20,000 nucleotides of DNA from Chiloscyllium plagiosum (GCF_004010195.1 NC_057749.1:17524645-17544644), one strand, 5' to 3'; shown: positions 1,375-17,320, counted from the stretch's first letter. The notes: generated from the sequence alone by a model not told the origin. Numbers and translations: made by a program.

Positions 1375-1494
1375 AAGGGCTTTTGCCCGAAACGTCGATT
1401 TTACTGCTCCTCGGATGCTGCCTGAACTGCTGTGCTCTTCCAGCACCACTAATCCAGAATCTGGTTTCCAGCATCTGCAGTCATTGTTTTTACC
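1375..1494 (+). mobile_element. Short PLE 3'-terminal fragment starting at hammerhead stem II (CUGANGA core absent)
   Basis: AAGGGC-TTTT-GCCC-GAAACGTC...GGATGCTGCCTGAACTGCTGTGCTCTTCCAGCA...CCAGCATCTGCAGTC, homologous to the copies at 8269-8351, 11917-12011 and 12250-12365. Confidence 0.75.
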
Positions 1495-1599
1495 CCCAGA
1501 CATGTTCCTGACCCGCTCAGCCGTCTACGCACAACGTGAGAACCTGTGGTCAGTTAGCTCTGTGGATCTGTGTATGTAATGTGACAATGCTGTCACTTT

Positions 1600-2081
1600 G
1601 CAGAATTATATTTTATTTTGCTCAAAACATGCATAACCTACAGTCAATCCATGTCAGATTCTGTAAATCCCACTTTAGAAATAGAACTATTTCTGACTCA
1701 AGACAGGGACACAGACAGACTTTAACCTCACACCTTTAATACGTTGTCTGAGCTGTGATGCCCCTATTGTTAGAAAAACTGAAGTTATCTTGAGAATATG
1801 ACTTAAAAGGAGTTCTGGGATTTACATATTAATGAACTGACACTAGAAAAACCATTCTAAAAGATAAAAGACATAATCTAAGTTTGTTTGATGTATTTCA
1901 GTTGCATGACACTGTAACCCTTTGCTATAAATTCTGTATCCTATGGTCCTGCTCCACAACCACCTGATGAAGGGGCAGTGCTCCGAAAGCTAGTGCTTCC
2001 AAACAAACCTGTTGGATTATAGGCTGGTGTGTGTGATTTTTAACTTTGTTCACCCCAGTCCATCACCGTCTCATCTGAATC
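1600..2081 (+). mobile_element. PLE 3' UTR / pseudo-LTR fragment nested in the solo LTR
   Basis: 8-bp TSD GTCACTTT (1592-1599 and 2082-2089). Homologous, in reverse orientation, to the 3' UTR of the GIY-YIG-bearing element at 7927-9100. Contains a hammerhead motif. Confidence 0.8.
1961..1995 (+). ncRNA. Minimal type I hammerhead ribozyme motif (PLE-type), intact core
   Basis: CAC|CTGATGA|A|GGGGC-AGT-GCTCC|GAAA|GC|TA|GTG. Stem I CAC/GTG, stem II 5 bp (one G-U), helix III replaced by the palindrome AGCT. Predicted cleavage after A1992. Confidence 0.75.
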
Positions 2082-2401
2082 GTCACTTTAAGAGGTTATT
2101 TTGAAGAGAGGTTGTAAGGCAGAGGTGTTGAGCTGGCTACTGAAGACCACTTGAGTGGACAGCATATGAGGCCTTGGGTTTTTTTAATGCAGCCTGAATG
2201 GGGGTGGCCAGCTTTCTCAGATTAGGATTTCTTGGTTTTGGTTTTTCAGTAGCGTCAAAGCTATTGGAGTCTCAACGGAATTGGAAGCTTCAATGAAAGT
2301 CTCCTGGCTGCTATTCTCTCTGAATGTTCTCTTGCTGTTGTTTTCCCCCCTGGATGGGAGAATTGCATGTGAGAATCTGTGTCTGAATTTACCTTTTTGC
2401 C

Positions 2402-2500
2402 AAGGTTTCAGTCTTGTTGAACTCTGTTGCTTTTCCTATCTGACTGGGGTCAGTTTCACACTGATCACCTTGAGAAACCCTCTGAAGTTGGATATTGCTT
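2402..2500. repeat. 99-nt dispersed duplicate, copy A, followed by a 30-nt LINE RT fragment (2501-2530)
   Basis: 90/99 identical and ungapped to 3490-3588. Bases 2501-2530 translate HKFANDTTIV, resembling the KFADDTT RT motif. Confidence 0.85.
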
Positions 2501-2834
2501 CACAAGTTCGCTAATGACACCACCATAGTCAATGTTTATGGGGTGTTACTATACTGAAACGGTTAATTAGTGATAGATACTGTTTCTATTATTTGGTCAA
2601 GTTTTCCAGCAGTTGCTATTCTACATTCTATCTTTTGTCTGTATTTTAACCAGAGTGTTTAAATAAATTGTGTTTTGCTTTACATGGAATGGATTGACCA
2701 GTCACATCACATCTGGAATATACACCACACCAACTTTCAAAATAAGCAAAAGTTAGGGTCCAGGCTACCCACATAAATACTTTGAGGGGGGTCTGGCTTG
2801 GTCCAATACAGTAACCTGTCTCCTGAGGGTATGT

Positions 2835-3007
2835 CTTTGAGGAGAAAGTGAGGTCTGCAGATGCTGGAGATCAGAGATGGAAATGTGTTGCTGGAAAAGC
2901 GCAGCAGGTCAGGCAGCATCTAGGGAACAGGAGAATCGACGTTTCGGGCTAATCCTGTTCCCTAGATGCTGCCTGACCTGCTGCGCTTTTCCAGCAACAC
3001 ATTTCCA
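2835..3007. mobile_element. Palindromic short PLE-derived insertion
   Basis: Perfect 59-bp inverted arms 2874-2932 and 2953-3011 with a 20-nt spacer. Exact 16-bp TSD TCTCCTGAGGGTATGT (2819-2834 and 3008-3023). Confidence 0.9.
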
Positions 3008-3335
3008 TCTCCTGAGGGTATGTGTATGTCTCCTGTGATTCGTTTATTTCACTGTGGAACCAACAGGATCTGCAACTCGATTTCTCATGGCCATTTGGTC
3101 AGTTTTGACACTGTTTGGCTGATCAAACTATTAAACAAGCAGGGAAGGTGATGCCACAATCTCCACCAATAGGCAATCCTGACTGAAGTCGTGTTGAGAT
3201 TTCCTGTTAAGCAGTTCAGTGGGTCTGATACTGCAACATTGCACTGTCTGCAGCACATCCATTAACACTGAAACATCAGCAACAAATCCCACCCTTGGAC
3301 AAGGCACTATATCTGTGCAATAGAGCTGGTAATAT

Positions 3336-3434
3336 AGAGCTTTGACAAAGGGTCAGTTAGACATGAAACGTCAGCTCTTTTCTCTCCTTACAGATGCTGG
3401 CAGACCTGCTGAGATTTTCCAGCATTTTCTCTTT
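3336..3434 (+). mobile_element. Short PLE 3' fragment with a decayed hammerhead
   Basis: 9-bp TSD TGGTAATAT (3327-3335 and 3435-3443). AGAGCT|TTGACAA|A|GGGTC-AGTTA-GACAT|GAAA|CG|TC|AGCTCT has a 6-bp stem I and two substitutions in the core. Confidence 0.75.
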
Positions 3435-3489
3435 TGGTAATATCCTAATTGGATTATAGACTCATGTTTGTCTATCATCTTTTCTGTCA

Positions 3490-3588
3490 AAGGTTTCAGT
3501 CTTATTGTGCTCTGGTGCATTTCCTATCTGATTGGGGTCAGTTTCACACTTATCACCTTGAGAAACCCCCGGAAGTTGGATATTGCTT
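3490..3588. repeat. 99-nt dispersed duplicate, copy B, directly abutting the 5' end of the Rex1-like LINE
   Basis: 90/99 identical to 2402-2500. Confidence 0.85.
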
Positions 3589-4358
3589 GGAAAAAGGACC
3601 TGGAAAAATGGTGCACTGAGAACAACCTAGCTCTCAATGCCGGCAAAACCAAGGAACCCTCATTATTGACTTTGGCGTGATGTTACTCATGCTCTCCCTA
3701 CACATTAACAGCACAGAGATGGAACAAGTGCAGAGTGTCAAGCTCCTGGGAGTGGTCATCCACAACAAGCTTTCTTGGACTCTTCATGTGGCTGCATTGG
3801 TTACAAAGGCTCAACAACGTCTCTTCTTCCTCAGGCAGCTGAGGAAATTTGGCATGACGGTGAATCCCCTTGCCAACTTTTAAAGGTGCACCATCGAGAA
3901 CATTCTGTCTGGATGCATCACTACCTGGTATGGCATCTGTACCACTCAAGATCGGAGACAGTTACAGAGAGTGGTGAACTCGGCTCGGACATTACAAAGG
4001 CCAACCTCCCATCTATAGAATCCATCTACCAGGCCCGCTGTCAAGGAAAGGCCCTGGGCATTCTCAAAGATCCACCCCACCCTGGCAATGTTTTTCTACA
4101 ACCTCTACCATCGGGGAGAAGGTACAGAAGCCTGAACACAGTCAGATATAGTTTCTACTCCACTGTTGTTAGAATACTGAATGGACTCTCAAACTCTTAA
4201 CATTCGCCTGTCCCTGTGTTTTTGTTTTTGCCGCTGTTTACCTATTTATTTACTATCTATGCTTCTTTGCGATCTGTCTGTATTGCTCACAAGACAAAGC
4301 TTTTCACTGTGTCTCAGTACACGTGACAATAAATTCAATTCAATTCAATTCAGTTCAA
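3589..4358 (+). mobile_element. 5'-truncated Rex1/Babar-like LINE (RT thumb plus DUF1891-like C-terminus), pseudogenised
   Basis: Across frameshifts and a stop it reads KDLEKWCTENNLALNAGKTKE / EQVQSVKLLGVVIHNKLSWTLH..KAQQRLFFLRQLRKFG / LPSIESIYQARCQGKALGILKDPPHPGNVFLQPLPSGRRYRSL. It ends in AATAAA plus a (TTCAA)n tail. Confidence 0.85.
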
Positions 4359-4524
4359 CTATTTGCAGCTTCCCAGGCTCTGGGTAAATTCTTCCGTTGG
4401 GGTAAAATTTGCTGAGGACAACGGTTTGTGCTGTGGACAGGGGGGGGATTGTGTAGCAGAACATCACAAAAAGGAGGTAACCTCCCATCACAAACTACAT
4501 AGACCACGTGTTTCCAAGCCTTTT

Positions 4525-4840
4525 GGGGCGGCACGGTGGCTCAGTGGTTAGCACTGCTGCCTCACAACACCAAGGACCCGGGTTCAATTCCTGCCTCGGG
4601 CAACTGTCTGTGTGGAGTTTACACATTCTCCCCGTGTCTGGGATGCTCCGGTTTCCTCCCACAGTCCAAAGCTGTGCAGGTCAGGTGAATTGGCCATGCT
4701 AAATTGCCCCTAGTGTAAGGTGCATTAGTCAGTGGTGAATGTAGGGGGGTGGGTTGCTCTTCAGAGGGTTGGTGTGGACTTGTTGGGCCGAAGGGCCTGT
4801 TTCCACGCTGTAGGTAATCTCATCTAATCTAATCTCTAAT
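4525..4840 (+). mobile_element. HE1-type V-SINE (tRNA-derived), near full length
   Basis: A box TGGCTCAGTGG, B box GGTTCAATTCC, V-domain (TGTGTGGAGTTTACACATTCTCCCCGTGTCTG...CTCCGGTTTCCTCCCACAGTCCAAAG), CR1-like tail GAAGGGCCTGTTTCC and (TAATC)n end. Possible TSD CTTTT (4520-4524 and 4841-4845). Confidence 0.92.
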
Positions 4841-5254
4841 CTTTTCACACAAGGACAGTCCCAGTGAGGAACAAACTGCCTAAGGAATAATCCCAGCCCA
4901 TCATTGGAACCCTTCAAGACTGGGCATGCAGAGGTTGGGCTGTGTTTTGGCAATATTTCCATGGCTTTCATCTGCTGAAGATTTTTCAGATTGTGTGCCT
5001 TTATCTTGGGCTATTCTGCCACTTCACAGCGAATGAGGGAATGACTCTTTGAAAAGGCACTGCCTTCATCTGCTCAGGTATGGGAGTCAAGTCCTACAGA
5101 TCGAATGGATGGTCTCTGCTAGCTATTTCAAAATGGCTGCAACGTGATGAAACGGGCTGGGTTTGGGGCTGGGGGTGATGGTGGGGTACAGCTGATTGTG
5201 GTAATGAGCCCCTGTGCTATCCTCTTGTTAGGAAGATATAATGCATGGAGTGTC

Positions 5255-5490
5255 TGTGTTCATGAATGGATCCGAGACCCTGGGTTCACACCTCTCACGG
5301 CAGTTTGAGAATTTCAGCTCAGTTTAATAAAGCTGGAAATAAAAAGAATGCAATATGAGTAAAAGTGACTGTAAAACTGTCAAAAAAACCCATAAAAATT
5401 TCAAAAAGTGACCACAAAACTGTCAGACTGTTGTTAGAAAATAAACCTGCTTAATCTGGTCTGGAGATACATCATTCACAATCATTGAGT
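5255..5490 (+). mobile_element. Highly decayed tRNA-derived SINE, related to 17630-17950
   Basis: CTGGGTTCACACCTCTCACGGCAGTTTGAGAATTT...AATAAAGCTGGAAATAAAAAG...AAAGTGACCACAAAACTGTCAGACTGTTG resembles the head and body of that family. Confidence 0.5.
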
Positions 5491-6100
5491 TTTGAGTCAG
5501 TTAATATTAGCCTCTTTAATATGAATGCACTGAATTTTGAGACTTGTATAAATGACTGTGTGTCTTGCTTTGTACATACTGACTGACTGAGCTGCCTGCT
5601 GTGGTGGGCTCCTCTTCCCCATTGTATTGGTCCTGAGTCCAGTGGTACCTATTGGCCTCAAATCTGCGTCAGAACCTCACCAGAAATTGGGCAGGAGTTA
5701 GTTTTGTCAAGTGTCGTAGTGAGTGTCTCTCTCTGGGGCCTGGTGAGTTTTCTATGTAATTGTTCCAAACTCAATCATTAACTATGCCACACGCCTCATG
5801 ACCCATGCCCTATGATGCTCCCGCCCACCCATCCAATGGACATCTGGTCTTCTGACCACCCACCTCCCCCCACAATCACCCCGCACCCAACCCTGTACTC
5901 GCTGAAACCAGATGTATTCCCACCTTCCGAGAGGGAATGCTCAATGCTCAATGCCCAGGGGGAAGTGGCAAATAAGGGAATGTCTGTGCCCCACTTTACA
6001 CACAGGGACCTGGAGGTCATGTTGGGCACTCAGATATGGAGGAGGCTCATTCTCATCCTACCCTCCAGGACTGACAGAGGAGACCATGACAGCACCCCCT

Positions 6101-6310
6101 GCCAGCCTGGGTCAGAGGTTGGCAGCTTGGGTCAGAGGTTGCCAGTCTGGGTCAAAGGTTACCAGCCTGGATCAAAGGTTGCCAGCCTGGGTCAGGGATT
6201 GGCAGCCTGGGTCAGAGGTTGCCAGCCTGGGTCGGAGGTTGGCAGCCTGGGTCAGAGGTTGCTAGTCTGGTTCAAAGGTTACCAATCTGGATCAGGGGTT
6301 GGCAGTGTGG
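6101..6310. repeat. 20-bp minisatellite, about 10.5 copies (GCCAGCCTGGGTCAGAGGTT)
   Basis: Exact 20-bp periodicity visible from 6101. Confidence 0.95.
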
Positions 6311-7064
6311 GCAGTATGATCTCCGGTATCTGGATGAATGGCCACCACTCAGGATGAGAATTCTCTGTGCTCTTCAATGACCTGCTCCTCCACCAGGGTA
6401 AGTGCAGCCACCTTTTCTCCAATAACTCACCCTGTCTCCATCTCTGCTCCTGTACCCACCTCCCACCAAGGCCCAGGCTTACCCCCCTCACCATTGCCAG
6501 CACCATCTTCCCTTGCTTACTGTCACTGTGCCCCCACACACACCACTACCCCTGCATGTCCTCTCTGCCCTGCCTACTCCCTCCCCTCCCCCTGCTTCCT
6601 CTCCTTTCCTAGTGGGGAGCAGCTGAGCTCCCAGTGGGACAGGACAAGTGAGATTGTTGGTGGTGTCTCTGACATTCTGCTCCCCAATGCAGACAGCACT
6701 GGCCTGGACTGACATTGGAGGCTGTTGGTAACTCTGTCCCAGGAGCCACTGACTGAAGCCTGGTGCCCTTGGCTTGGTTTAGGATCACTCCCTGAGCCCT
6801 GGCTCCCTGTTTGCTGCTCCCGTGGGGGGTTTGCTGTGGGAGTGGGGGACAGTGATGTGGCACACTGCCGGATTGAAAGGTGCCCACCCCCTGAGCTGGT
6901 GATCACTGACCAGCTTAACCAGCTGCCTGGGTCTGTGTCTGTGTCTGTGTCACACTACACAGCCACGGGGAAGGGGGCTGTCAGTCTGTTAGCTCTGGCT
7001 GAGGGAGGGAGGTGTGGGAAGGTGAAGAAAGGTGAAGGAGGGATGCTGTAGGAGTCTGAGTAGG

Positions 7065-7295
7065 TTCAGGGTGAGAGAGGGAGGGAGGGTGTGAGGGAGT
7101 GTGAGAGGGAGTGAGGGAGTGTGTAAGGGTGGGAGTGGGTGTGAGAGAGGGATTGAGTGAGGGAGGGAGTGGGTGTGTGAGGGGGGATTGGGTGTGTGAG
7201 GGAGGGATTGGGTGTGTGTTGAGGGAGTGGGTAGGTGTGTGAGTGAGGGAGGGAGTGGGAGAGTGAGTGAGGGATTGAGTGAGTGAGTGAGTGCT
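7065..7295. repeat. G/A/T low-complexity tract (GAGT/GAGG/GTGT cryptic repeat)
   Basis: Essentially C-free on the + strand, with recurring GTGTGAGGGAGGGATTGG-like words. Confidence 0.9.
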
Positions 7296-8144
7296 GAAAG
7301 AGCAGGTGAGGAGCAGTGAGATGCAACCTGGTCCAATCCAGGAGCTGATGTGACTCTGTGTGCAGTGTTCCTATAGCAGCACTCCGAGAAAGGCAGGGCC
7401 ACATGGAGAGTGAGTGAGGGAGTGGGCAGGAAGGGGATTGTGACGTGTTCCTGATGATGTAGTGAGGCTGCTCTGAGCTGGATGCCAATGCCCGTGAACA
7501 TGGGGTATGAACGATGCCCACATTCCCCACTCCCTTCATGGGGTATGTCCTGAGACGTTGGTGTTAGGTGTCCAAGGTAGAGAGAGCTGGAGGAGCGGGC
7601 AGTGAGTAGGAGTCACTGGGTAAGCTGCTCAGACTTCCACATCAGGAATTCTGAGAGTCTGGTTTCTCTCCAGGGTGGGAGAATGGGAAGGTGCATTAGC
7701 GTGAAGTAAGATTAATTAATAATGAGAGTAACAGTCAGTGATTAATCCCCATTAATTGACTCTCACCTACTGAAAATCCTGTCTGTGGGAGTTGGTTGAA
7801 AAATGCAAGGTTCCAGTCACAATGTTGAGAAAGACCTCATTGGGCACCATGCCTGATTTTCCCACATCATTTGGGAGGTTGGGAAGTTGGAATGTTATTC
7901 ACCAGAAGAGCTACAGATATTCCTGACTTAAAAATCACGCAACACAGGTTATAGTCCAACAGCTTTGTTTGGAAGCACTAGCTTTCGGAGCGCTGCTCCA
8001 TCAGGTGATTGTGGAGAATAAGATTGTAAGACACAGAATTTATAGCAAATATTTACGGTGTGATGCAACTGAAATCATACATTGAAAAAGACCCGGATTG
8101 TTTGTTAAGTCTCTCATCTTTTAAATTGGGCATGTTGGTTTCAG

Positions 8145-8349
8145 GAGAAAGTGAGGTCTGCAGATGCTGGAGATCAAAGTTGAAACTTTATTGCTGGAAC
8201 AGCACAGCAGGTCAGGCAGCATCCAGGGAACAGGAGATTCGACGTTTCGGGCACAGGCCCTTCCTGAAGAAGGGCCTGTGCCCGAAACGTCGAATCTCCT
8301 GTTCCCTGGATGCTGCCTGACCTGCTGTGCTGTTCCAGCAATAAAGTTT
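8145..8349. mobile_element. Young palindromic PLE-derived insertion nested inside another PLE
   Basis: Perfect 83-bp inverted arms 8181-8263 and 8269-8351 with a 5-nt loop. Exact 14-bp TSD CATGTTGGTTTCAG (8131-8144 and 8350-8363). Confidence 0.93.
8261..8294 (+). ncRNA. Minimal type I hammerhead ribozyme motif, intact core
   Basis: TTC|CTGAAGA|A|GGGC-CTGT-GCCC|GAAA|CG|TC|GAA. Stem I TTC/GAA, with the palindrome ACGT in place of helix III. Predicted cleavage after C8291. Confidence 0.75.
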
Positions 8350-8611
8350 CATGTTGGTTTCAGTCCTTTCATATGTAAATCGCAGAACTTTCTTAAAGTT
8401 ACATTCTCAAGTGAACTTTAACAATAGGTGCCATGTCGGCCCAGATAATGCATTGAAGGTGTGAGGTGCCCTGTGTGAGGCTGTCAGTGCCCCAATGTTC
8501 AGACTGATCTTATTTCTAAAAAAAAGGGATTTACAGAATCTTACATGGATTCATGCAGTTTCTGAGCAAAATAAAATGTAATTCTGCAAGTACAAATTCA
8601 CCCCACAAACT

Positions 8612-8802
8612 TATGTGTGTGTGTGTGTGTGTGTGCATGTGTGGATGTGTGTATAAAATGGTATAAGTCTGTGAGAGGGTGCGTGTGGGGGTATGGGTCT
8701 GAGTGTGGGGGATGTGTGTGTGTGAGCATATGAGAGAGAGAGGGTCCACGTAAGTGTATGGGTCTGTAGGTGTGTGTGCGCGCGTCTGCGTGTGTGTGTG
8801 TA
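8612..8802. repeat. (TG)n-rich compound microsatellite in the PLE 3' UTR
   Basis: Several TG runs and a short GA run. Confidence 0.9.
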
Positions 8803-8815
8803 TAGTGCAGTGGGG

Positions 8816-9083
8816 TCACCTGTAGTATGACATGAACCGAAGGTCCCGGTTGAAGCCATCCCCATGGGTACTGAATTTGCCTATCAGCCTCTATTCGGCC
8901 ACTCTGTTGTTTTCTGTCCCAAAGTCTGCCTCGGAGGACGGTCACCCAAAGATGTGAGGTTGAATGTCCCGGACTGCTAAAGTGTTCTCTGACTGGGAGG
9001 GAACACTCCTGTCTGTTGATTGTTGTGTGGTGCCCATTCATCTGTTACTGTAGCCTCTGCTCGGTCTCACCAATGTACCTTGC
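8816..9083 (-). pseudogene. C-terminal GIY-YIG endonuclease remnant of the PLE ORF
   Basis: YIGETEQRLQ*QMNGHHTTINRQECSLPVREHFSSPGHSTSHLWVTVL, a frameshift, then RVAE*RLIGKFSTHGDGFNRDLRFMSYYR*. YIG at 9069-9077, a GFN variant of the terminal GLN motif, and two internal stops. Confidence 0.88.
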
Positions 9084-9764
9084 TGAGAGCATCTTGCCTG
9101 CAGATATTCCTGAGAATGTTACCCTGCACTTTCAGCTTCATGCCAGTAGATGGTGGGCTTGCTCCACAATGACGAGAATTCTCATTAATCCCCATCTCCC
9201 ACATGGACCCAGGAAAAGCAAACAGTCCCTTCACTTTGACTTTTGCTTGTTTCTCTGTATGTATCTTTGTCCCGTTATAATAGGATAATTTGAATTGTTG
9301 TCCAGGATCCTTCTCTTCCATCCTATAAACTGAAGTCACTGTTTTTGATTCAGTCCCTTTCCCAGTTCAAACAGCCCTTCCTAATCCTAACCTGATACAT
9401 GAGGTTGGTGCAGGTTGTGTTTGTGTTTGGATTTCCCTGTTCCTGCGAACCATTCCAGTGACCGTGGTTGATGTGTTGTACTCCCAGGATGTTGATCGCT
9501 CAGAGGTGCCCCCCTCCCTGCAACTAGCAACGTTGAGAAATGGAATTATCCAGGTCACTTCCAAACAGCTGCACTGGGAGTCCACCTCAGCAGCTACCCC
9601 TGTCAGTGTAATGATGTTGTCAGACCGAGCTCCCCCGTGTTCCTGTGAAGTTACAGTGAGACGGAGGAAGATGAAAGAATGACTTTCAGAAAGCAGAGAA
9701 GCAGTACAGTCAGACAGGCAGGGTTTTGTAATGCAACGTTGGTAGTGTTGTCACATTGAGGGGG

Positions 9765-10205
9765 TGAATGGGACTGAACAGAGTCAATGCAGGAAGGATG
9801 TGCATGAAGACCGACGAGTCCAGAACCAGGCAGCACACTCTAAGGATCTGAGGACAGCCCTGTCGGACTGAGAGAAACGTCTCCACCCCGAAGGTGATGA
9901 GGCTCTTGGTTTCACTAAACGCAGAAAGCAGCTGAGGCCAAAACATTGTATGATTTCAACAAGGAGTTGGATATCGCATTTGGGGCTAAAGGGATCAAAG
10001 GAGTTGGGGGGAAAAGCAGGAACAGACCATTGAGTTGGATGCCAAGAGTGTGGTGCTGGAAAAGCACAGCAGGTAAGGCAGCATCTGAGGAGCAGGTGAA
10101 TCGATGTTTCGGAGAGTTGGATGGTCAGCCATGATCATACTGAATGGTGGTGCAGGCTCGAAGGGCAGAATGGCCTCCTCCAGCTCCTATTTTCTGTGTT
10201 TCTAC
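9765..10205 (+). mobile_element. CR1 LINE 3' fragment with a nested PLE piece
   Basis: DFNKELDIAFGAKGIKG, and 3' UTR CAGCCATGATCATACTGAATGGTGGTGCAGGCTCGAAGGGCAGAATGGCCTCCTCCAGCTCCT. Confidence 0.85.
10042..10113 (-). mobile_element. 72-bp PLE 3' fragment
   Basis: 10-bp TSD GAGTTGGATG (10032-10041 and 10114-10123). Homologous to the palindrome arms and truncated in hammerhead stem II. Confidence 0.85.
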
Positions 10206-10790: not shown

Positions 10791-10804
10791 AGGTTGTCAT
10801 ATTT

Positions 10805-11091
10805 GAATCATAGCATCATGTACATTGTGGAAGCAGGCCGTTCAGCCCATCAAGTCTATACCAACCCTCTGAAGAGCATCCCACCCAGACCCAACAGCGT
10901 AGCGTATCCCTGCATTTCCCATGGCTAATCCACCTAACCTGCACATCTTTGGACTGGGGAAGGAGACTGGAGCACCCGGAGGAAACCCATGCAGAGACTG
11001 GGAGAATGTGCAAATTCCGAGGCTGGAATCAAACCCAAATCCCTGGAGTTGTGGGGCAGCAGTGCTAACCACTGAGCCGTCGTGCTCTCCC
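10805..11091 (-). mobile_element. HE1-type V-SINE
   Basis: The minus strand reads GCACGACGGCTCAGTGGTTAGCACTGCTGCC...GGGTTTGATTCC...GCACATTCTCCCAGTCTCTGCATGGGTTTCCTCCGGGTGCTCC. Homologous to 4525-4840. Confidence 0.9.
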
Positions 11092-11129
11092 AGTATGTGT
11101 ACAGTAAAGTGCTGAATGACCATGTGAGG

Positions 11130-11305
11130 TCTCTCTCTCTCTCTCTCTCTCTGTTTCTCTATCTTTCTATCTCTTTCTCTCTATTTCCCTCTCTCTTTCT
11201 CTCTATGTCTTTCCCCACTCTCTCTCTCTGTCTCTGTCTCTATTGCTCTATCTTTCTATCTCTCTCTCTCTCTATCTCTCTCTTTCCCTCTCTCTCTCTC
11301 TCTCT
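11130..11305. repeat. Imperfect (CT)n microsatellite
   Basis: About 175-bp pyrimidine tract. Confidence 0.95.
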
Positions 11306-11907
11306 GTTGTGGCTGAGGATCAGATGTGCTGTCAGTGACTGCACCCACCACAATGCACCAGGCAGGGTACACAGCATTTCGACTGAGTCACCCCCTGTGA
11401 GAATGAACCTCCTGCTGGCAGGAATGAGTCTTGGGGAAATGACAACTCACTCTTTACTGCTCATTCAAACTAAGCTGCAGGTGGCAGCAGTGATGTTCAA
11501 AGATTTACACAAACCCAAGCTGGATTAAAGCACGGCAAATTACAGCAAGTGTACTTAATGGAATTGATGTCAGGTTAACATGAGCATTTGAATCTCTGCC
11601 ACTCTTGGTCAGTGATTAAAATATGATTCTGTGTGATAGAAGCTGACTGATCTATTTGCAAGTTAGTAAGCTCACAGCTGATGCTGCAGAATGTAACATT
11701 TCCATTCCCTTTGTACATCATTGGAGTCTCTGTTGTAACTGACTGTTACTGCCTGACACCTCAATACTGCCATCGTTTACGTTGTTACAAACGATGCGTA
11801 ACTGAGACCGTCTCTTAAATATTGAAGTTCACCCCCATGCTGCAGTCATCCGTAGGTGAAACAGGTTTGGGTTTTTTGATACAGAATGTGGTTAGCTCAG
11901 TCCATGA

Positions 11908-12006
11908 AGGATTCAGTTCCTGAAGAAGGGCTTATGCCCGATACGTCGATTCTCCTGCTCCTTGGATGCTGCCTGACCTGCTGCGCTTTTCCAGCAACAC
12001 ATTTTC
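11908..12006 (+). mobile_element. Short PLE 3' fragment with a hammerhead carrying GAAA->GATA
   Basis: 14-bp TSD AGCTCAGTCCATGA (11894-11907 and 12007-12020). TTC|CTGAAGA|A|GGGC-TTAT-GCCC|GATA|CG|TC|GAT. Confidence 0.88.
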
Positions 12007-12205
12007 AGCTCAGTCCATGACATGCCTGATGTTTGCTGTCAGTAACAATGGGAGTGCAGTTTGAATCCCCACAGAGACTGAGGTACGTGTCTAATCCCAC
12101 AGCAATAGCTTGGCATGATTAACAACCCAGTGAGGATGCCAAGTGACAGAGAGAGAGAATGCTAATATAAACTCTCTTCCTCATATGGCTTTTTTCTCTC
12201 TGTCC

Positions 12206-12372
12206 AAGGAGCAGGAGAATTGACGTTTCGGGCATGAGCCCTTCAGTGATTCCTGAAGAAGGAACGTTGATTCTCCTGTTCCTTGGATGCTGCCTGACCT
12301 GCTGTGCTTTTCCAGCAACACATTTTCAGCTCTGATCTCCAGCATCTGCAGTCCTCACTTTCTCCTAGAAGA
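12206..12372. mobile_element. Asymmetric palindromic PLE-derived insertion
   Basis: 16-bp TSD TTTTTTCTCTCTGTCC (12190-12205 and 12373-12388). A short inverted left arm and a full right arm ending CTCACTTTCTCC. Both hammerheads are internally deleted. Confidence 0.88.
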
Positions 12373-12771
12373 TTTTTTCTCTCTGTCCTCAGCCCTTTCC
12401 ACCAACTCCATCCCTTCCCCCCGAGCTACCATCTCAGGTTAATGTTCACAATCAGAGTGTTCTATTTCCCCCTCAGCTCAGCCTCTAGCTGATGTTCCCT
12501 GTCATCTAAGTGTCTGCCCCAGCCTTTCGACGTGTGCAACTTGGCGTCTGGTTGTATTGATGTTTGATTCTGGAAGTCGCTGCTGCTCCCTGTGACATCA
12601 GGAAGAATGAGGCAGACATAAGCTTCTAGCCCCACACTCTGTCCGTGACCAAGACCCCTTCCCAAAACCACACCCAACTCTGCAACTCTATCCACCTCAG
12701 CCTCACTTCAGTCTATTTGCTGTCCAGTCCCTCGTCCGTGCTGTCAGTACGTCTAGATTGGACTATTCTAT

Positions 12772-12989
12772 CGACCTGTGACCTCTTTTCCTTCACAATG
12801 CAGACATCTGACCTTGAACAACATCCTGCTTCTCTTTGAATAATCTCACACCCCTCCCCGTTGTTCACTGACTGAGTGAGCGACCTGTGACCTCTTTTCC
12901 TTCACAATGCAGACATCTGACCTTTGAACAACATCCTGCTTCTCTTGAATAATCTCACACCCCTCCCCGTTGTTCACTGACTGAGTGAG
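12772..12989. repeat. Head-to-tail duplication of a 109-bp unique segment
   Basis: 12772-12880 and 12881-12989 are identical except for two single-T indels. Confidence 0.95.
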
Positions 12990-13036
12990 CTCAGGGTTAA
13001 TATTCTCATCGTCTTGTTGAAGTCTGTCCATGACCT

Positions 13037-13420
13037 TGAGGTTGAGAGGTGACCTTATAAAGGTTTATAAAACCATGAGGGGTATAGATAAGGTGAACTG
13101 CAGGTGTCTTTTCCCTGGGGTGGGGGATTTCAAGACTAGGGGCACATTGTTAAGGAGAGAGGAGAGAGATTTAACAAAGACATGAAGGACAGATTTTTTT
13201 TAACACAGAGCATGGCTCAGTTACGGGATGAACTTCCAGAGGAAGTGACAGATGTGGGCACAGTTACAACATTGAGAAGACATTTAGATAAGTACATGAG
13301 TAGGAAATGTTTGGAGGGACATGGGTCCAGTGCAGGCAGGTGGGACACGTTTAGTTTCGGATTATGATCGACGTAGACTGGTTGGAGTGAAGGGTCTGTT
13401 TCCATGCTGAATAACTGAAT
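13037..13420 (+). mobile_element. CR1 (HER1-like) LINE 3' fragment
   Basis: RLRGDLIKVYKTMRGIDKVN...FKTRGH...DELPEEVTDVGTVTTLRRHLDKYMSRKCLEGHG, and tail GAAGGGTCTGTTTCCATGCTG. Confidence 0.9.
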
Positions 13421-13664
13421 AACCTCTCCCCACTATCTCTGTCGACTCTCTAATGGCTCTGTTCCCTTTGTCTCTGGTTTGGTGTTTACTCCCTTGACTG
13501 GCAGAGTCAATGTAAACAAGCTTCAGGCTGAATGTAATCCACACACCAGGCAGATACATAGGTCACTTATTCACCTCCTGTTGAATGTGAGCCATCTCCC
13601 GTCCCAAACTTCAAAATCTTTTTGGTGCTGTTTATATTGAAAGCACAGCTCCGAAAGCCTCCCA

Positions 13665-13740
13665 GGATTCAATAGCTCCTTGTGAAATACCTTGGAACAT
13701 TTTGCAATGTTAATGGATCTGTCCCTCAATAAGTTGTTAA
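13665..13740 (+). mobile_element. Possible L2-type 3' tail remnant
   Basis: GCTCCTTGTGAAATACCTTGGAACATTTTGCAATGTTAATGG...AAGTTGTT resembles the L2 tail (TGTGAAGCGCCTTGGG...AAAGGCGCTATATAAA). Confidence 0.4.
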
Positions 13741-14281
13741 TGTATAAGGCAACTGGGAATGAGGATAAGCAGAAATCAACTCCAGCGCTTTCTCCAAACC
13801 ATTCCCAATCCATCAATGCCATTTTGAAGGTAGGGTGTCTGCTTTCCACAGTATACCAAGTGTCTTCTCAATGATGATTTATACTGTGTTAAAATAACCT
13901 TTCTCAGTTCATGGTAAAAAGCCCTTGAGGGGTGTCTTGTAGTTTGATTGACGATTTACCTTGTGTGTGTGAATGTTCTGAATATTCCTATCTTCCTATT
14001 TTAACACCAGTGGCAGATTGATTAGATACTTTCAATAGCGCCGCTTGGAAAATTGTAGGATTCATTATTTGAAATTCTTCTTCTCATTGACACTAGCTTA
14101 TTCATTTTGTGTAACAAGTCCATCGAAGTGCAGTGCAGTTGTCGCTGTTGGTTTGGTGGAGTTCCGAAGTCACTCGCTATATTGTTCATACCCACACTCT
14201 GACCAGCGACCCAAGAACCAATTAGAGAGTTGTCATCAGACAGATCACCTTCCACATCCACTACTGGTTGCAATTGCATGA

Positions 14282-14347
14282 GCTAATCATTTCCTTGTTG
14301 CTGATCAGTCACTTGTTACTAATCAGTCACTTGTTGCTGATTAGTTC
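14282..14347. repeat. 18-bp tandem repeat, about 3.7 copies (CTTGTTGCTGATCAGTCA)
   Basis: Full units start at 14294, 14312 and 14330. Confidence 0.9.
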
Positions 14348-14369
14348 CCTGTTGGCAGTTGAATATTAT

Positions 14370-14634
14370 CGAATTTTGAGAAGATGTGTAGCTCAGGTTG
14401 AGGTTCTGGATGTAGATTTGCTCACTGAGCAGGAAGGTTTGTTTTCAGACGTTTCATCACCAGACTAGGTAACATCTTCATTGAGCCTCCGGATGAGGCA
14501 CTGGTGGTATGGCCCGTTTTCTATGTATATGTTTGAGTTTTCTTGGTGCCCACTCAGACTCACTGAAGATGTTACCTAGAATGTGCTGAAACATCTGAAA
14601 ACGAACCTTCCAGCTCAGCGAGCACACCTACATC
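14370..14634. mobile_element. Older palindromic PLE-derived insertion of another family, with two decayed hammerheads
   Basis: Imperfect inverted arms at about 14406-14486 and 14558-14637. 14-bp TSD with 2 mismatches (14356-14369 and 14635-14648). Motifs TCA|ATGAAGA|T|GTTACC-TAGTCT-GGTGAT|GAAA|CG|TC|TGA (- strand, 14445-14484) and TCA|CTGAAGA|T|GTTACC...|GAAA|CA|TC|TGA (+ strand, 14560-14598). Confidence 0.82.
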
Positions 14635-14813
14635 CAGTCGAATGTTATTTTATCACACCTTGGTGCAGTGCCATCTGTCCTTACAGATCCCCCCCACTGC
14701 TTCCAAAGCAACAGTGTTAGCACAACTTACAATGAGTTTCAGTAATTTAAAAAAAAATACAGAAATTCCTTCCTCCATTCTTTGTTTGTAAAGACAATCC
14801 TTTTCACAATTCA

Positions 14814-14909
14814 GTCAAGAATGTGGTGCTGGGAAAGTACAGCCAGTCAGGCAGCATCCGAGGAGCAGGAGAATCAGTTTTTCAAGCATAAGTTCTTCAT
14901 CAGGAAAGG
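14814..14909 (-). mobile_element. Short PLE 3' fragment with a decayed hammerhead
   Basis: 15-bp TSD with 2 mismatches (14799-14813 and 14910-14924). The minus strand begins TTCCTGATGAAGAACTTATGCTTGAAA. Confidence 0.8.
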
Positions 14910-14969
14910 CCTTCTCACAACTCAACCAAGTAAATTACAAAATAAATGTGGCCTTTACTTTGGAAGGAA

Positions 14970-15058
14970 TCTAAACAGAAAATACTGAAGATATGCGGCA
15001 GGTCTGACAGTATCTGGAGTGAGAGAGTTGTCTTAATGTTTCAGGTCTCTGATCCTTC
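14970..15058 (-). mobile_element. Very decayed PLE 3' fragment
   Basis: AAACAGAAAATACTGAAGA..GCAGGTCTGACAGTATCTGGAG..AATGTTTCAGGTC..GATCCTTC is similar to the reverse complement of 3336-3434. Confidence 0.55.
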
Positions 15059-15230
15059 CGCATGCTGCAGCAGGTTATGAATACATAAAAGGAAGATGGT
15101 ACAGGTAAACGTAGGTAATAATGGGACACATCATGAAACAGAACAAATGAGCCAAGCTCGAAATGGTTTCAATGCTGCTGTCTGGAAAATGGCAGCAATG
15201 ATTACTGTCTTAAATTGTAGAATTCAGTGT

Positions 15231-15467
15231 AGGAGCAAATTATAGCAGATGCTGGAATCTATACTGAAAACAACAAATGCTGGAGATCACAGCAAGTCAG
15301 ACAGCATCCATGGAGAGAGACCAAGCTAATGTTTCAAGTCCATTTCTCTCTCTCTCTGTGTCTCTCTCTGTCTCTCTATCTCTGTCTCTCTCTCTGTCTG
15401 TCTCTATCTCTCTCTTTCCCTCTCTCTCTATGGATGCTGCCTGCCCCACAGTATTTGTTGTTTTCAC
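15231..15467. mobile_element. Old palindromic PLE-derived insertion with an internal (CT)n expansion
   Basis: Arms TGAAAACAACAAATGCTG..CAGCATCCATGGAGAGAG and CTCTCTATGGATGCTG..CAGTATTTGTTGTTTTCA. 16-bp TSD with 3 mismatches (15215-15230 and 15468-15483). CT tract at 15343-15429. Confidence 0.72.
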
Positions 15468-16164
15468 TTGTAGAACTCGATGTTGAGGGTGGTAAGTTGC
15501 GAAGGGCTGAGTTAAAAGATACAGTGCAGTTCCTGGAGATTCAGTTGAATTTCATTGGAAGGAAGGATTTTCAAGTGATCATCGTGATTGGGATCAAGTT
15601 GATCCACTAGGATAGGAAAATGAAATGGGGATATTGTGAACTGGGTTTGATCTATGACAAAGGGAAGGACTTGCATGACCTACTGATTATTCAAGTGGCA
15701 TTTTGATATTTTTCTTCAAAGTAACTGTAATTGTGGCTATTATTCACACAGACTGATCTCAGTGTTTAAATGGCTTGGAACTGAATGTAAGATCAGAGGG
15801 AAAAGGGTTTCAATGAACGGCCAACAGCAGGTATCACACAGAGGAACAAGTTTCAATGAAAGCACAGCTGCATTAAATACATTATCAGCAATTCATTTCC
15901 AATCAACAGTAATTACTGGAAGCCTTTAAGCATCTGTTGGTTTGGTAAACTTAAACAAATCAGATGTTGCTTGTCTTGAAATGATTTCCATTGCTAATTA
16001 TTACTGCAGGAGCTAACAGAAACCTCTTCAAACAAATATCAGCAATTAACAATGACAGTGACACGCCATTGGAAGCAGCTGGCTGCATTGGTGCAGATTA
16101 CATTGGCAAGAAACCTGATCATTTTCTTGTAGTCCTGAGCAGAGCAACATAGGTCCATACGTGT

Positions 16165-16245
16165 TGCAAACTGATTGTGCTAGTGGCAGTGTGCAAACTG
16201 ATTGTGCTAGTGGCAGTGTGCAAACTGATTGTGCTCGTGGCAGTG
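16165..16245. repeat. 27-bp tandem repeat, 3 copies (TGCAAACTGATTGTGCTAGTGGCAGTG)
   Basis: One mismatch, in copy 3. Confidence 0.95.
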
Positions 16246-16599
16246 ACTGTAACATCATGGTAGACCCAGAGACTTGGGGGCGAGATGTGGTGTAAAGGGT
16301 TAATTTAAGATGTGATTTGCTAATGAGATACAGCGCACCTCAACCTAAAGCAATACAATGTCATGTGATCCTACTCTCATACAAGCTCATGGTGAGAAGA
16401 AGAAGCAGTGAGATGTTTCTCAAATCGAGTTAATTCTTTCCTCAGCCAACTCTGTAAATGTTCTTTCACATCACAGCAACACCAAGAATACTATAGTGAC
16501 CACTACACTGGTCTGTTACTGTTGACTGACCAAGATCAATACCACACAGAGGAAGTTGAGTTGGAGAGACCGAGGATTTAAATCCAGGAATTTGGGGGA

Positions 16600-17063
16600 G
16601 AGAGGATGTTACTCGGACTGGAGAGTTTGAGTTATGAGGAAACGCTGAATAAGCTGAGGCATTTTTCACCGGAGTGTAGGAGGTTGAGGGGTGACCTTAT
16701 GGAGGCTTATAAAATCATGATGGATACAGGTAAATAGCAAAGCTCTTTTCCTTAGGTTGGGGGAGTTTAAAACTAAGGGGCATATTTTTAAGGTGAGAGG
16801 AGAAAGATTTTAAAAAGACGCAACAGACAACTTTTTTACACAGAGCGTGGTTCGTGTGTGGAATGAACTGTCAGAGGAAATGGTGGATGCAGGTACAGTT
16901 ACAACATTTAAAAGACATTTAGATAGGTCCATGGACAGGAAAGGTTTAGAGGGATATGGACTAAGTGCGGACAAATGGGACTCGTTTAGTTTGGGAAACT
17001 TGGTTGGCATGGATGTGTTGGACTGGAGAGTCGGTTTCTGTGCTGTGTGACTCTAAGACTCTG
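16600..17063 (+). mobile_element. CR1 (HER1-like) LINE 3' fragment
   Basis: GLESLSYEETLNKL..RRLRGDLMEAYKIM..VVRVWNELSEEMVDAGTVTTFKRHLDRSMDRKGLEGYG, with tail TGACTCTAAGACTCT. Homologous to 13037-13420. Confidence 0.92.
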
Positions 17064-17208
17064 TAACTGACATTTTGCATTTAGCATAAGTAAAACTAAG
17101 TGGCAGTTTTCATTCAGACTTGGCCAAGGCATAGATGCAGTCGGGTAACTAGTCTGAACTGATTTTTTAGCCAGAAGTATCTGATGTAGCTCATTGATAA
17201 GCATTTTA

Positions 17209-17320
17209 AAGATGTTACCCAATATGCTGACGAAACGACTGGAAATGAACCTTCCAGCTCAGCGAGCAAACCTACATCTAGAACCTCAACCTGAGGGCTA
17301 CAAATCTTCTCAAAACTTGC
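17209..17320 (+). mobile_element. Short PLE 3' fragment (same family as 14370-14634), truncated within the hammerhead core
   Basis: AAGATGTTACCCAATATGCTGACGAAACGACTGG...CCTTCCAGCTCAGCGAGCAAACCTACATC. Confidence 0.78.

What the first reader, a model, noticed from the sequence alone, without database searches (positions are those of the whole stretch)
1375..17320. About four PLE families share one minimal hammerhead-ribozyme architecture with covarying stems
Seen: motifs at 1961(+), 3336(+), 7976(-), 8261(+), 11917(+), 14445(-), 14560(+) and ~14905(-), plus partial ones at 1375, 2940, 10110, 12250 and 17209. They fit stemI-CUGANGA-N-stemII-GAAA-(CG|GC)-UH-stemI. The stems differ in sequence but keep pairing: stem I is CAC/GTG, TTC/GAA, AGAGCT/AGCTCT or TCA/TGA; stem II is GGAGC/GCTCC, GGGC/GCCC or GTTACC/GGTGAT. 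Helix III is reduced to the palindrome ACGT or AGCT. Established: PLE pseudo-LTRs carry minimal type I hammerheads thought to work as dimers. Inference: about 13 such loci in 20 kb would imply a very large genomic load of ribozyme-derived sequence, which ordinary repeat annotation would hide.
Basis: partly seen in the sequence, partly recalled or inferred. Interest (0 to 1): 0.75.

Follow-up and report, generated by a model that had tools for sequence, protein, structure and literature searches.

The report
Penelope-type retroposons carrying minimal hammerhead motifs
This stretch of shark-like DNA is littered with copies of Penelope-type jumping genes and their short parasites, each carrying a stripped-down hammerhead ribozyme motif of a kind already described in other animals.

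Summary
The sites are real. All 13 belong to four repeat families (A-D), as 16 arms from 12 insertions. Only 2 of the 8 "full" motifs are intact, 1961-1995(+) and 8261-8294(+); 300 shuffles gave none. The rest are decayed or 5'-truncated copies, but other genome copies of every family carry an intact motif.

The architecture is the published minimal hammerhead of Penelope-like elements (PLEs): an extra base after A9, G10.1-C11.1, a palindromic 15.2/16.2 and no loop III (PMC4209133). Family D has the known U3-A8 core variant. Stems differ completely between families yet always pair.

Family B is the 3' end of an autonomous PLE: an endonuclease remnant lies at 8781-9128(-), and a full copy has an inverted terminal repeat. 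Family C is probably another PLE lineage. A and D are short non-coding riders, and no autonomous partner was found for them.

All four show PLE insertion marks: 8-16 bp target duplications, 5' truncation, two alternative 3' ends and head-to-head arms. One 209-nt hairpin has 40 identical copies.

Self-cleavage was not shown. Rfam finds no hammerhead. This is a new member of a known kind.

The parts
1371..1500 (+). Family A copy, 5'-truncated inside helix II (starts AAGGGCTTTTGCCCGAAACGTC). It lacks the CUGANGA box and has the long 3' end.
   Evidence: (D5); no target duplication found
1560..2068 (+). Family B copy, the 3' UTR part of a PLE. It holds an intact minimal hammerhead at 1961-1995: cac-CUGAUGA-A-GGGGC(AGU)GCUCC-GAAA-GC-UA|GUG, cut after A1992. 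The short 3' end lies at about 2045 and the tail runs to about 2068. The 5' limit is approximate.
2835..3007 (.). Family A hairpin insertion. The left arm is antisense with the long end and the right arm is sense with the short end. The arms are 59 nt and 100% complementary. The junction lies inside the hammerhead, so no complete motif remains. It is flanked by a 15-16 bp target duplication (2819-2834 / 3008-3023).
   Evidence: (I15)
3336..3434 (+). Family D element, about 99 nt. It starts exactly at the helix I 5' strand: AGAGCU-UUGACAA-A-GGGUC(AGUUA)GACAU-GAAA-CG-UC|AGCUCU (3336-3378). It has the U3-A8 core. Target duplication of 8-9 bp (3327-3335 / 3435-3443).
7927..9100 (-). Family B insertion, a 5'-truncated PLE copy. 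It holds an endonuclease (GIY-YIG) remnant, a 3' UTR, a decayed hammerhead at 7965-7996(-) and a 3' end at about 7928. A 13 bp target duplication flanks it (7914-7926 / 9101-9113). It carries a nested family A hairpin.
8781..9128 (-). Reading frame with one TAA stop, read as X for the search. It is related to the C-terminal GIY-YIG part of shark RT-endonuclease proteins.
   Evidence: Pfam itself gives no hit on it
8145..8350 (.). Family A perfect hairpin: 83-nt arms, 100% complementary, loop CTGAA. The descriptor-intact hammerhead lies at 8261-8294(+) next to the apex, with a helix I of only 3 bp. The left end is the long 'tail' end in antisense and the right end is the short end. A 13-14 bp target duplication flanks it (8131-8144 / 8350-8363). 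There are 40 places in the genome that are 100% identical.
   Evidence: (I3)
10042..10113 (-). Family A copy, 5'-truncated inside helix II, with a 10 bp target duplication (10032-10041 / 10114-10123).
11908..12006 (+). Family A copy starting just 5' of the CUGAAGA box. The core is mutated (GAUA for GAAA). It has the short 3' end and a 14 bp target duplication (11894-11907 / 12007-12020).
12206..12372 (+). Family A copy with a short inverted 5' arm, a deletion inside helix II and the long 3' end. A 16 bp target duplication flanks it (12190-12205 / 12373-12388).
   Evidence: (I1, I2)
14392..14637 (.). Family C head-to-head pair. The antisense arm carries a motif at 14445-14485(-) with C3 changed to A. 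The sense arm carries a motif at 14560-14598(+) with a broken helix II.
14820..14912 (-). Old, decayed family A copy.
   Evidence: (D7, I7)
17209..17310 (+). Family C copy, 5'-truncated inside the CUGANGA box, with the long 3' end. The right limit is approximate.
   Evidence: (D15, I6)

Best explanation
The window holds at least 12 insertions of Penelope-type retroelements from four families. Each family ends in the same terminal module: a minimal type I hammerhead motif, then about 45-65 nt of RNA, then an optional 20-45 nt 'tail'.

What each family is:
- Families B and C are 5'-truncated copies of autonomous PLEs (reverse transcriptase plus GIY-YIG endonuclease). This is shown for B and likely for C.
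- Families A and D are short non-coding riders made of little more than this module. They start at, or a few bases before, the 5' strand of helix I. That they are copied by the PLE enzyme is inferred.

How they insert (inferred by analogy with the Anolis PLE PAc):
- The PLE enzyme nicks the target and starts reverse transcription inside the RNA, at one of two nearby sites downstream of the hammerhead. This would give the two alternative 3' ends.
- Extension often stops early, which gives 5' truncation.
- A second, inverted copy is often laid down head to head. In the short families this yields hairpins.

What the hammerhead does (inferred):
- It has no helix III of its own. ACGU or AGCU can pair only with a second copy, so any cleavage would need a dimer or the element's protein.
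- Its retention across families, with every stem changed and only the core kept, says the source elements are selected to keep it.
- Most genomic copies, including 6 of the 8 in this window, are dead relics.
For: Motif:
- 2 strict hits in the window against 0 in 300 shuffles.
- 17 context-distinct strict hits (16 distinct motif sequences), from families A, B and C, in 301,549 nt of window plus loci.
- Family D is intact in 5 of 5 other copies.
- Features the descriptor tolerated or left open rather than required match the published description (PMC4209133, text read): a base after A9 (A, A, U, A in the four families; the descriptor allowed 0 or 1) and G10.1-C11.1 in A, B and C (it accepted any standard pair). 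The palindromic 15.2/16.2 was required by the descriptor.
- Family D has U3-A8, a variant reported there.

Between families, in real copies L043, L052, L080 and L092:
- Helix I is GAUUC/GAAUC, CAC/GUG, UCA/UGA and AGAGCU/AGCUCU.
- Helix II is GGGC/GCCC, GGAGC/GCUUC, GUUACC/GGUGAC and GGGUC/GACUU.
- All are paired, and three to four pair types occur at most positions.

Within family C, N7 is the one freely varying core base (A30/T14 of 46). The other non-CpG core positions are at least 89% constant.

PLE link:
- The translation of 8781-9128(-) matches shark proteins.
- Their long relatives carry RVT_1 and GIY-YIG.
- The translation aligns to the GIY-YIG stretch of P0015.
- The genome holds many RT-EN copies: 78 matches from 69 scored candidates.
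- One copy, L091, reads: inverted 200-bp terminal copy with hammerhead, then ORF, then 3' UTR, then hammerhead, then end.
- PLE ORF fragments lie upstream on the same strand of C copies in L077, L084 and L090.
- C copies show a 5'-truncation profile.

Insertion marks:
- Target duplications of 9-16 bp flank 7 of 12 window insertions.
- 29 of 30 hairpin loci have duplications of 11-21 bp.
- 3' ends are bimodal in A, B and C.
- These match the PLE features stated in PMC8557442 (passages) and PMC11167929 (main text).
Against: - Rfam finds no hammerhead family, even at E<=10.
- Only 2 of 8 window motifs are intact.
- Helix I is only 3 bp in B, C and the 8261 copy.
- Within-family covariation is weak: B scores 0.223 against 0.182 in shuffles, and C has 3 double-change cells. 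The tool warns that relatedness alone can give such values.
- In the young hairpin the motif is locked in an 83-bp perfect duplex (-187.8 kcal/mol).
- The laid RNA reads show no pile of ends at the cut site (section 6), although that poly(A) single-cell library suits the question poorly.
- Pfam sees no domain in the window's own endonuclease remnant.
- A Pfam GIY-YIG scan of the genome gave one weak hit.
- No autonomous partner was found for A or D.
- Published PLE hammerheads cleave poorly in vitro (PMC4209133), and cleavage was not needed for insertion in vitro (PMC11167929).
Confidence: 0.8

Rival explanations
1. The motif is kept not as a self-cleaver but as a structured RNA handle. It could be a binding or positioning site for the PLE protein, a stop for reverse transcription, or part of a promoter. 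It would look like a hammerhead because it descends from one.
For: - The retroposed units of A and D begin at the 5' edge of the motif, not at the cut site.
- 8261 is a recurrent boundary in reads and contigs (sections 5 and 7).
- No read ends pile up at the cut site.
- In the Anolis PLE, cleavage needed the protein and was dispensable for insertion in vitro (PMC11167929, main text).
Against: - The bases kept across four families are exactly the catalytic core.
- The only core change is the isosteric C3-G8 to U3-A8 swap, which is hard to explain without the hammerhead fold.
- N7, the one base that is free in a hammerhead, is the one that varies.
Confidence: 0.15
2. The hairpins are miniature inverted-repeat DNA transposons or microRNA genes, and the hammerhead likeness is incidental.
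For: - The palindromes are long and perfect (I3, I15).
- Weak Rfam matches to miRNA precursor families fall on them (mir-1253 at 50.5 bits against a cut-off of 103).
Against: - Target duplications vary from 9 to 16 bp in the window, and from 11 to 21 bp among 29 loci.
- Single arms occur alone with 5' truncation.
- The same arms sit at the 3' end of PLE copies in B and C.
- All miRNA matches are far below the gathering scores.
Confidence: 0.03
3. The matches are chance, found by a reader who was looking for the pattern.
For: - The core boxes are short.
Against: - 0 hits in 300 shuffles against 2 in the window.
- The imperfect sites are copies of families whose other members are intact.
Confidence: 0.01

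Closest known systems
Minimal hammerhead motifs (min-HHR) in the terminal repeats of metazoan Penelope-like elements (Cervera and De la Pena 2014, PMC4209133)
   Same: Type I topology with no helix III or loop III, palindromic 15.2/16.2, an unpaired base between A9 and 10.1, and G10.1-C11.1. Helix II is the longer stem and helix I is short. A U3-A8 variant exists. Each genome holds many consensus families, mostly as solo copies, with some pairs on opposite strands.
   Different: That paper names fishes, coelacanth, Xenopus and reptiles, and I saw no cartilaginous fish in the parts I read. Here helix I is as short as 3 bp in two families. In families A and D the motif sits at the very 5' end of a roughly 100-200 nt unit. 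Perfect hairpin copies are amplified as such.
Poseidon PLE of Anolis carolinensis, PAc (Frangieh et al. 2024, PMC11167929)
   Same: A hammerhead lies shortly upstream of two adjacent internal start sites of reverse transcription, which gives an optional 30-40 bp tail. The enzyme nicks and extends both DNA strands in vitro. No RNA-seq ends were seen at the cut site.
   Different: In PAc the ORF starts inside the hammerhead. Here short frames from ATGs in the motifs of A and B stop within about 9-17 codons (read by eye, no call). The distances from the cut site to the ends are about 46-63 nt (short) and 76-105 nt (long). No biochemistry exists for these elements.
Metazoan non-LTR retrozymes (Cervera and De la Pena 2020, PMC7229834; Li et al. 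2026 preprint, 10.64898/2026.07.22.740005)
   Same: Non-coding, hammerhead-bearing and proposed to be non-autonomous derivatives of PLEs.
   Different: Retrozymes are defined by head-to-tail tandem units with canonical type I hammerheads, and they give circular RNA. No tandem arrangement is seen in the window. Copies here are solo or head-to-head.
Schistosome Sm-alpha / Sj-alpha SINE-like elements with hammerheads (as summarised in PMC6765202)
   Same: Short interspersed non-coding retroposons whose 5' part is a hammerhead.
   Different: Those carry a promoter and a canonical hammerhead with loop contacts, and they cleave well. That last point is recalled, not checked here.

Membership tests
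PLE minimal hammerhead (min-HHR) | Conserved core C3U4G5A6N7G8A9 ... G12A13A14 ... U16.1 H17 (or the U3-A8 variant) | tested here: met
   Intact at 1961-1995 and 8261-8294. Intact in other copies of A, B and C and in 5 of 5 other D copies, with U3-A8. 6 of 8 window sites fail.
PLE minimal hammerhead (min-HHR) | One unpaired nucleotide between A9 and 10.1 | tested here: met
   A in families A, B and D; U in family C. All strict hits use bulge=1.
PLE minimal hammerhead (min-HHR) | G10.1-C11.1 closing pair of helix II | tested here: met
   G-C in A and B. In C it is G-C in 16 and G-U in 26 of 45 distinct rows, which is CpG decay. D has G-U.
PLE minimal hammerhead (min-HHR) | No helix III or loop III; 15.1-16.1 plus a palindromic 15.2/16.2, so that two copies can pair | tested here: met
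   ACGU in A, C and D; AGCU in B. Dimer pairing itself is not shown.
PLE minimal hammerhead (min-HHR) | Open helix I of about 4-5 bp | tested here: inconclusive
   5 bp in A (L043) and 6 bp in D, but only 3 bp in B, C and the 8261 copy.
PLE minimal hammerhead (min-HHR) | Sits in the terminal repeat of a PLE | tested here: met
   B: L091 has the motif in both the inverted upstream copy and the 3' end. C: ORF fragments lie upstream in 3 of 50 copies. Not shown for A or D.
PLE minimal hammerhead (min-HHR) | Site-specific self-cleavage (as dimer or protein-assisted) | not testable with these tools
   No pile of read ends at the cut site, from a library that suits the question poorly.
Rfam hammerhead families | Score at or above the family's gathering threshold | tested here: not met
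   0 matches at gathering. No hammerhead among 21 matches at E<=10. I recall that the curated models expect a helix III.
Penelope-like element (autonomous) | [quoted passage not shown] | tested here: met
   For family B only. The window remnant P0001 relates to shark proteins. Relatives P0015 and P0036 pass Pfam RVT_1 and GIY-YIG. P0001 aligns to the GIY-YIG stretch. The genome holds copies with frames of 450-800 aa, most of them broken.
Penelope-like element (insertion marks) | 5' truncation, an inverted 5'-truncated copy at the 5' end, an optional 30-40 bp tail at one end, and variable target duplications (PMC8557442) | tested here: met
   The 8145-8350 hairpin has the tail on one arm only.
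Metazoan non-LTR retrozyme | Head-to-tail tandem units, each with a type I hammerhead | tested here: not met
   No direct tandem copies of A-D in the window.
MITE (DNA transposon derivative) | Terminal inverted repeats with a target duplication of fixed length; no 5'-truncated single arms | tested here: not met
   Duplications of 9-16 bp and 11-21 bp. Solo truncated arms occur.

The most novel reading that the evidence does not exclude
The perfect 209-nt hairpin (8145-8350; 40 identical places) may be a currently active 'foldback' rider of a PLE. Both of its ends are PLE reverse-transcription start sites: one is the long 'tail' site and the other is the short site. That would be a natural footprint of the two-strand nick-and-extend reaction so far seen only in vitro for the Anolis enzyme.

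The two arms may be remade from one template at each round. They differ together from older relatives (CCTGTG/CACAGG against CTTATG/CATAAG).

As a further possibility, its transcripts form 83-bp perfect double-stranded RNA that locks the ribozyme and could feed small-RNA silencing of the family.
Probability: 0.25. Interest if true: 0.6.

Novelty: new member of a known kind. Interest (0 to 1): 0.4.

Why it matters
It extends the minimal-hammerhead/PLE association to a cartilaginous-fish-like genome. It also shows the scale there. About 0.4 arms per kb and about 3% of bases in 226 kb of sampled flanks consist of this terminal module alone.

It gives a natural data set for open questions on how PLEs insert: four families with two alternative 3' ends, hundreds of head-to-head junctions, and a hairpin family that is still identical across 40 places. 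These bear on internal initiation, the origin of the tail, and the origin of inverted copies.

It does not change what is known about hammerhead ribozymes. For annotation, it explains many long palindromes and miRNA-like hairpins in such genomes as retroposon structures.

Tried and rejected
- **Rfam:** scans at gathering and at E<=10 gave no hammerhead. Only sub-threshold miRNA-type hits fell on the palindromes.
- **Pfam GIY-YIG scan of the genome:** one weak hit among 150 scored of 14,403 candidates. This was useless for finding PLEs. The protein route worked instead.
- **Pfam on 112 long frames from the window and loci:** only three RVT_1 hits, not next to the motifs.
- **Pfam on P0001-P0005:** nothing found, although the database lists PF26215 for two of them.
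- **Sequencing runs:** no RNA holder was listed.
- **Laid reads:** run X20 gave no reads. The contig runs X1 and X15 show only that the repeats are abundant.
- **Cross-family MAFFT alignment:** it misaligned family C. The between-family pair table is therefore read by hand from real copies rather than counted by the tool.
- **Dimer cofolding:** it gave only trivial domain-swapped duplexes and says nothing on helix III.
- **Continuity of a C copy with a PLE ORF downstream in L073:** rejected. The C copy ends at its usual long end before the ORF.
- **Lunse et al.:** the paper is not held. It is cited only through the review PMC6765202 (passages).
- **Earlier findings of this scan:** nothing.
- **Papers on sharks:** searches for Penelope + shark + hammerhead ribozyme and Penelope + Chiloscyllium + transposable elements listed no paper on these elements in sharks.

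Full report
**What is there.** The window is repeat-rich vertebrate DNA. The closest protein relatives of its one recognisable coding remnant are shark proteins.

They fall into four families.
- Family A (1371-1500, 2835-3007, 8145-8350, 10042-10113, 11908-12006, 12206-12372, 14820-14912) shares the body GGATGCTGCCTGACCTGCTG...TTCCAGCA.
- Family B is at about 1560-2068(+) and 7927-9100(-).
- Family C is at 14392-14637 and about 17209-17310.
- Family D is at 3336-3434.

Seven of the 12 insertions are flanked by direct repeats of 9-16 bp. None was found for the other five.

**Check of the motif.** I wrote a strict descriptor. It required a helix I of at least 3 bp; CUGANGA or UUGANAA; 0-1 extra base; a helix II of at least 4 bp; GAAA; a palindromic dinucleotide; U; and H.
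- It finds two sites in the window, 1961-1995(+) and 8261-8294(+).
- It finds none in 300 dinucleotide-preserving shuffles.
- The other six 'full' sites each carry one to several defects, and the five 'partial' ones are truncated within the motif.
- Rfam does not see any of them, at gathering or at E<=10.

**The families' other copies carry the intact motif.**
- In 301,549 nt of window plus fetched loci, the descriptor finds 17 context-distinct hits (16 distinct motif sequences), from families A, B and C. The 30 identical hairpin copies count once.
- Family A's older and solo copies read (G/C/T)ATTC-CTGA(A/T)GA-A-GGGC-TTWT-GCCC-GAAA-CG-TC|GA(A/T)TC. One young copy (L043) has a perfect 5-bp helix I.
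- Family B (32 copies, about 85% alike) has the majority line cac-CTGATGA-A-GGAGC-AGC-GCTTC-GAAA-GC-TA|GTG.
- Family C (46 copies) reads tca-CTGA(A/T)GA-T-GTTACC-TAGTAT-GGTGA(C/T)-GAAA-CG-TC|TGA.
- Family D reads AGAGCT-TTGACAA-A-GGGTC-AGTTA-GACTT-GAAA-CG-TC|AGCTCT in 5 of 5 further copies. The window copy has one helix II change.
- Minimum-energy folds of real copies of A, B and D give helix I plus helix II.

**Why this is a hammerhead and not a look-alike.** Cervera and De la Pena (PMC4209133; I read parts 1-2 of the text) list features of PLE minimal hammerheads that emerged beyond their search pattern. These are a base between A9 and 10.1, G10.1-C11.1, palindromic 15.2/16.2, many consensus families full of compensatory changes, and a U3-A8 variant of the C3-G8 core pair.
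- All of these are seen here.
- My descriptor tolerated or left open the first two rather than requiring them: it allowed 0 or 1 extra base and accepted any standard closing pair. It did require the palindromic 15.2/16.2.
- Between families, every stem base differs while every cell pairs. At 2.1/1.1 the pairs are C-G, C-G, A-U and U-A. At 10.4/11.4 they are C-G, G-C, A-U and U-A (read by hand from L043, L052, L080 and L092).
- Family D's U3-A8 stands beside older D-like relatives that have CTGA(A/G)GA.
- In family C the one freely varying core base is N7 (A30/T14 of 46). Losses elsewhere are mostly at CpG.

Within families the signal is modest.
- B: 88.2% of cells are paired, one pair splits AU13/GC8/GU7, and the covariation score is 0.223 against 0.182 in shuffles (3 of 500 reach it).
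- C: 94.6% are paired, with three double-change cells.
- The tool warns that relatedness alone can give such values.

**The PLE link.**
- The 5' part of the B(-) insertion, 8781-9128(-), translates with one TAA read as X into a frame related to shark proteins.
- One of these, P0004, reads YIDD...CxxC...VVYLIRC...YIGET. I recall this as the RT motif C and GIY-YIG pattern of PLEs.
- 61 longer relatives at E<=1e-5 mostly list PF00078, and some list PF01541. My own scan confirms RVT_1 plus GIY-YIG in P0015 and P0036.
- The window frame aligns to residues 706-773 of P0015, inside its GIY-YIG hit.
- The genome holds many such ORFs: 78 matches from 69 scored of 103,423 first-look candidates, at 63-80% identity to P0006, most with stops.
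- One copy, L091, reads from left to right: a 200-bp inverted copy of the 3' end with the motif on the minus strand; an ORF of 338+371 codons with one stop; the 3' UTR; the motif, with GAAA decayed to AAAA; and the end. The two terminal copies are 91.5% alike.
- This is the arrangement Craig et al. describe for PLEs: an inverted 5'-truncated copy adjacent to the 5' end (PMC8557442, passages).
- For family C, PLE ORF fragments lie upstream on the same strand in L077, L084 and L090. Copies thin out with distance from the 3' end, from 50 copies to 22 at 300 nt, 10 at 550 nt and 4 at 750 nt.
- For A and D I found no ORF. Their dependence on a PLE is inferred.

**Insertion marks shared by all four families.**
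- The 3' ends are bimodal. In A they lie at about 91-96 and about 124-138 of the query, in B at about 105-110 and 123-136, and in C at about 84-90 and at 115 or beyond. That is a short end, and a long end 20-45 nt further on.
- This matches the optional 30-40 bp 'tail' of PLEs (PMC8557442). It also matches its explanation by two adjacent internal start sites of reverse transcription in an AC-rich stem-loop downstream of the hammerhead (PMC11167929, main text read).
- The regions here are also AC-rich (CCAGCAACACA; CAAACCTACATCCAGAACCTCAACC; CCACCCCAGTCCAACAC).

**The hairpins.**
- 8145-8350 has 83-nt arms that are 100% complementary, with a 5-nt loop.
- 40 places in the 3.56-Gb genome are 100% identical over 208-209 nt. 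These are the 40 scored of 988 candidates, and they include the window's own.
- All 30 fetched loci have different flanks, and 29 show direct repeats of 11-21 bp, with a mode of 14.
- The left end is constant: (C)(T)(T)CG-AGGAGAAAGTGAGG, the complement of the long end. The right end stops at the short site with 0-5 extra bases. One locus (L002) has the long end on both sides.
- So the tail sits on one arm only, as described for PLEs.
- Junctions of independent hairpins lie at or within a few bases 5' of the CUGA box (L005, L046, L079, L088). In family D they lie at the AGCT of helix I (L094, L095).
- 8261 is a recurrent boundary in reads and contigs (sections 5 and 7).
- Why the retroposed unit begins at the 5' edge of the motif rather than at the cut site is unexplained.
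- As RNA the hairpin would bury the motif (-187.8 kcal/mol). The intact-looking 8261 motif also owes its 3-bp helix I to the inverted arm.

**Load.** In 226,200 nt of flanks around unrelated target loci there are 86 arms (A 52, B 23, C 8, D 3). That is 0.38 per kb and 3.3% of bases. The window has 0.8 per kb. The flanks are not a random sample, because B flanks often hold B's own inverted partner. Whether standard annotation hides it was not tested.

**RNA.**
- Raw poly(A) single-cell reads of the same species label lay on the stretch: 1,456 reads from about 2% of run X19.
- 98% of these run on into unlike sequence, so they come from many copies inside longer transcripts.
- No place shows a pile of ends.
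- This says the copies are transcribed passively. It neither shows nor excludes cleavage. The Anolis study likewise saw no ends at the cut site (PMC11167929).

**Mechanism and status of each step.**
- Shown: the families, their motif, the insertion marks, and the PLE identity of B.
- Likely: the PLE identity of C.
- Inferred from the literature: internal initiation at two sites, two-strand priming as the source of inverted arms, and cleavage only as a dimer or with protein.
- Not shown: any cleavage.

**Comparison and novelty.** This is the known PLE minimal hammerhead, found in a shark-like genome and in at least four families. Two of these are very short riders. Two searches listed no paper on such elements in sharks. 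The 2026 preprint sampled one cartilaginous fish, and only for tandem retrozymes. I file it as a new member of a known kind. Supplements of the cited papers, which hold the species lists, were not read and may already include cartilaginous fishes.

Noticed in passing
window 8261; L094 and L095 junctions; one search list: The retroposed units of families A and D begin at the 5' strand of helix I, or 1-4 nt from the core, and not at the predicted cut site. Independent hairpin junctions cluster there too. No known step of hammerhead processing gives an end at that place.
   Followed up: partly
window 8181-8351 against older hairpins such as L088: Both arms of the young hairpin carry the same novelty (CCTGTG/CACAGG where relatives have CTTATG/CATAAG). 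This suggests either that the arms are remade from one template at each round, or that the family is very young.
   Followed up: no
window 14960-15060 and 15221-15465: Two further hairpin-like relatives of family A/D (arms ...cagcatc... / ...gatgctg...). The second is split by a CT-rich microsatellite. Only a decayed GAAAC remnant is left, and BLAST with the A-D queries did not pick them up.
   Followed up: no
window 4524-4812(+) and 10821-11092(-): Two copies of a tRNA-like SINE in opposite orientation (inverted repeats I13 and I17).
   Followed up: no
window 6060-6340: Tandem array of a 20-bp unit (TGCCAGCCTGGGTCAGAGGT-like), about 14 copies (D2).
   Followed up: no
window 12772-12990: An exact 109-bp tandem duplication (D16 and D17).
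   Followed up: no
window 13038-13361 and 16680-16996: Two copies, 77-83% alike, of another dispersed repeat that is unrelated to the hammerhead families (D9 and D14).
   Followed up: no
window 17481-17933 and 19144-19247: Another inverted-repeat family (I4, I20, D18), not examined.
   Followed up: no
L073 23-1284(-): A PLE reverse-transcriptase frame of a lineage distant from family B (29-35% to P0056). It lies directly downstream of a complete family C copy, which looks like an insertion next to a pre-existing PLE.
   Followed up: partly
Runs of four other coded organisms hold 0.15-0.31 of the sampled words of 7900-8420, so near-identical copies of part of the stretch may exist in other species.
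   Followed up: no
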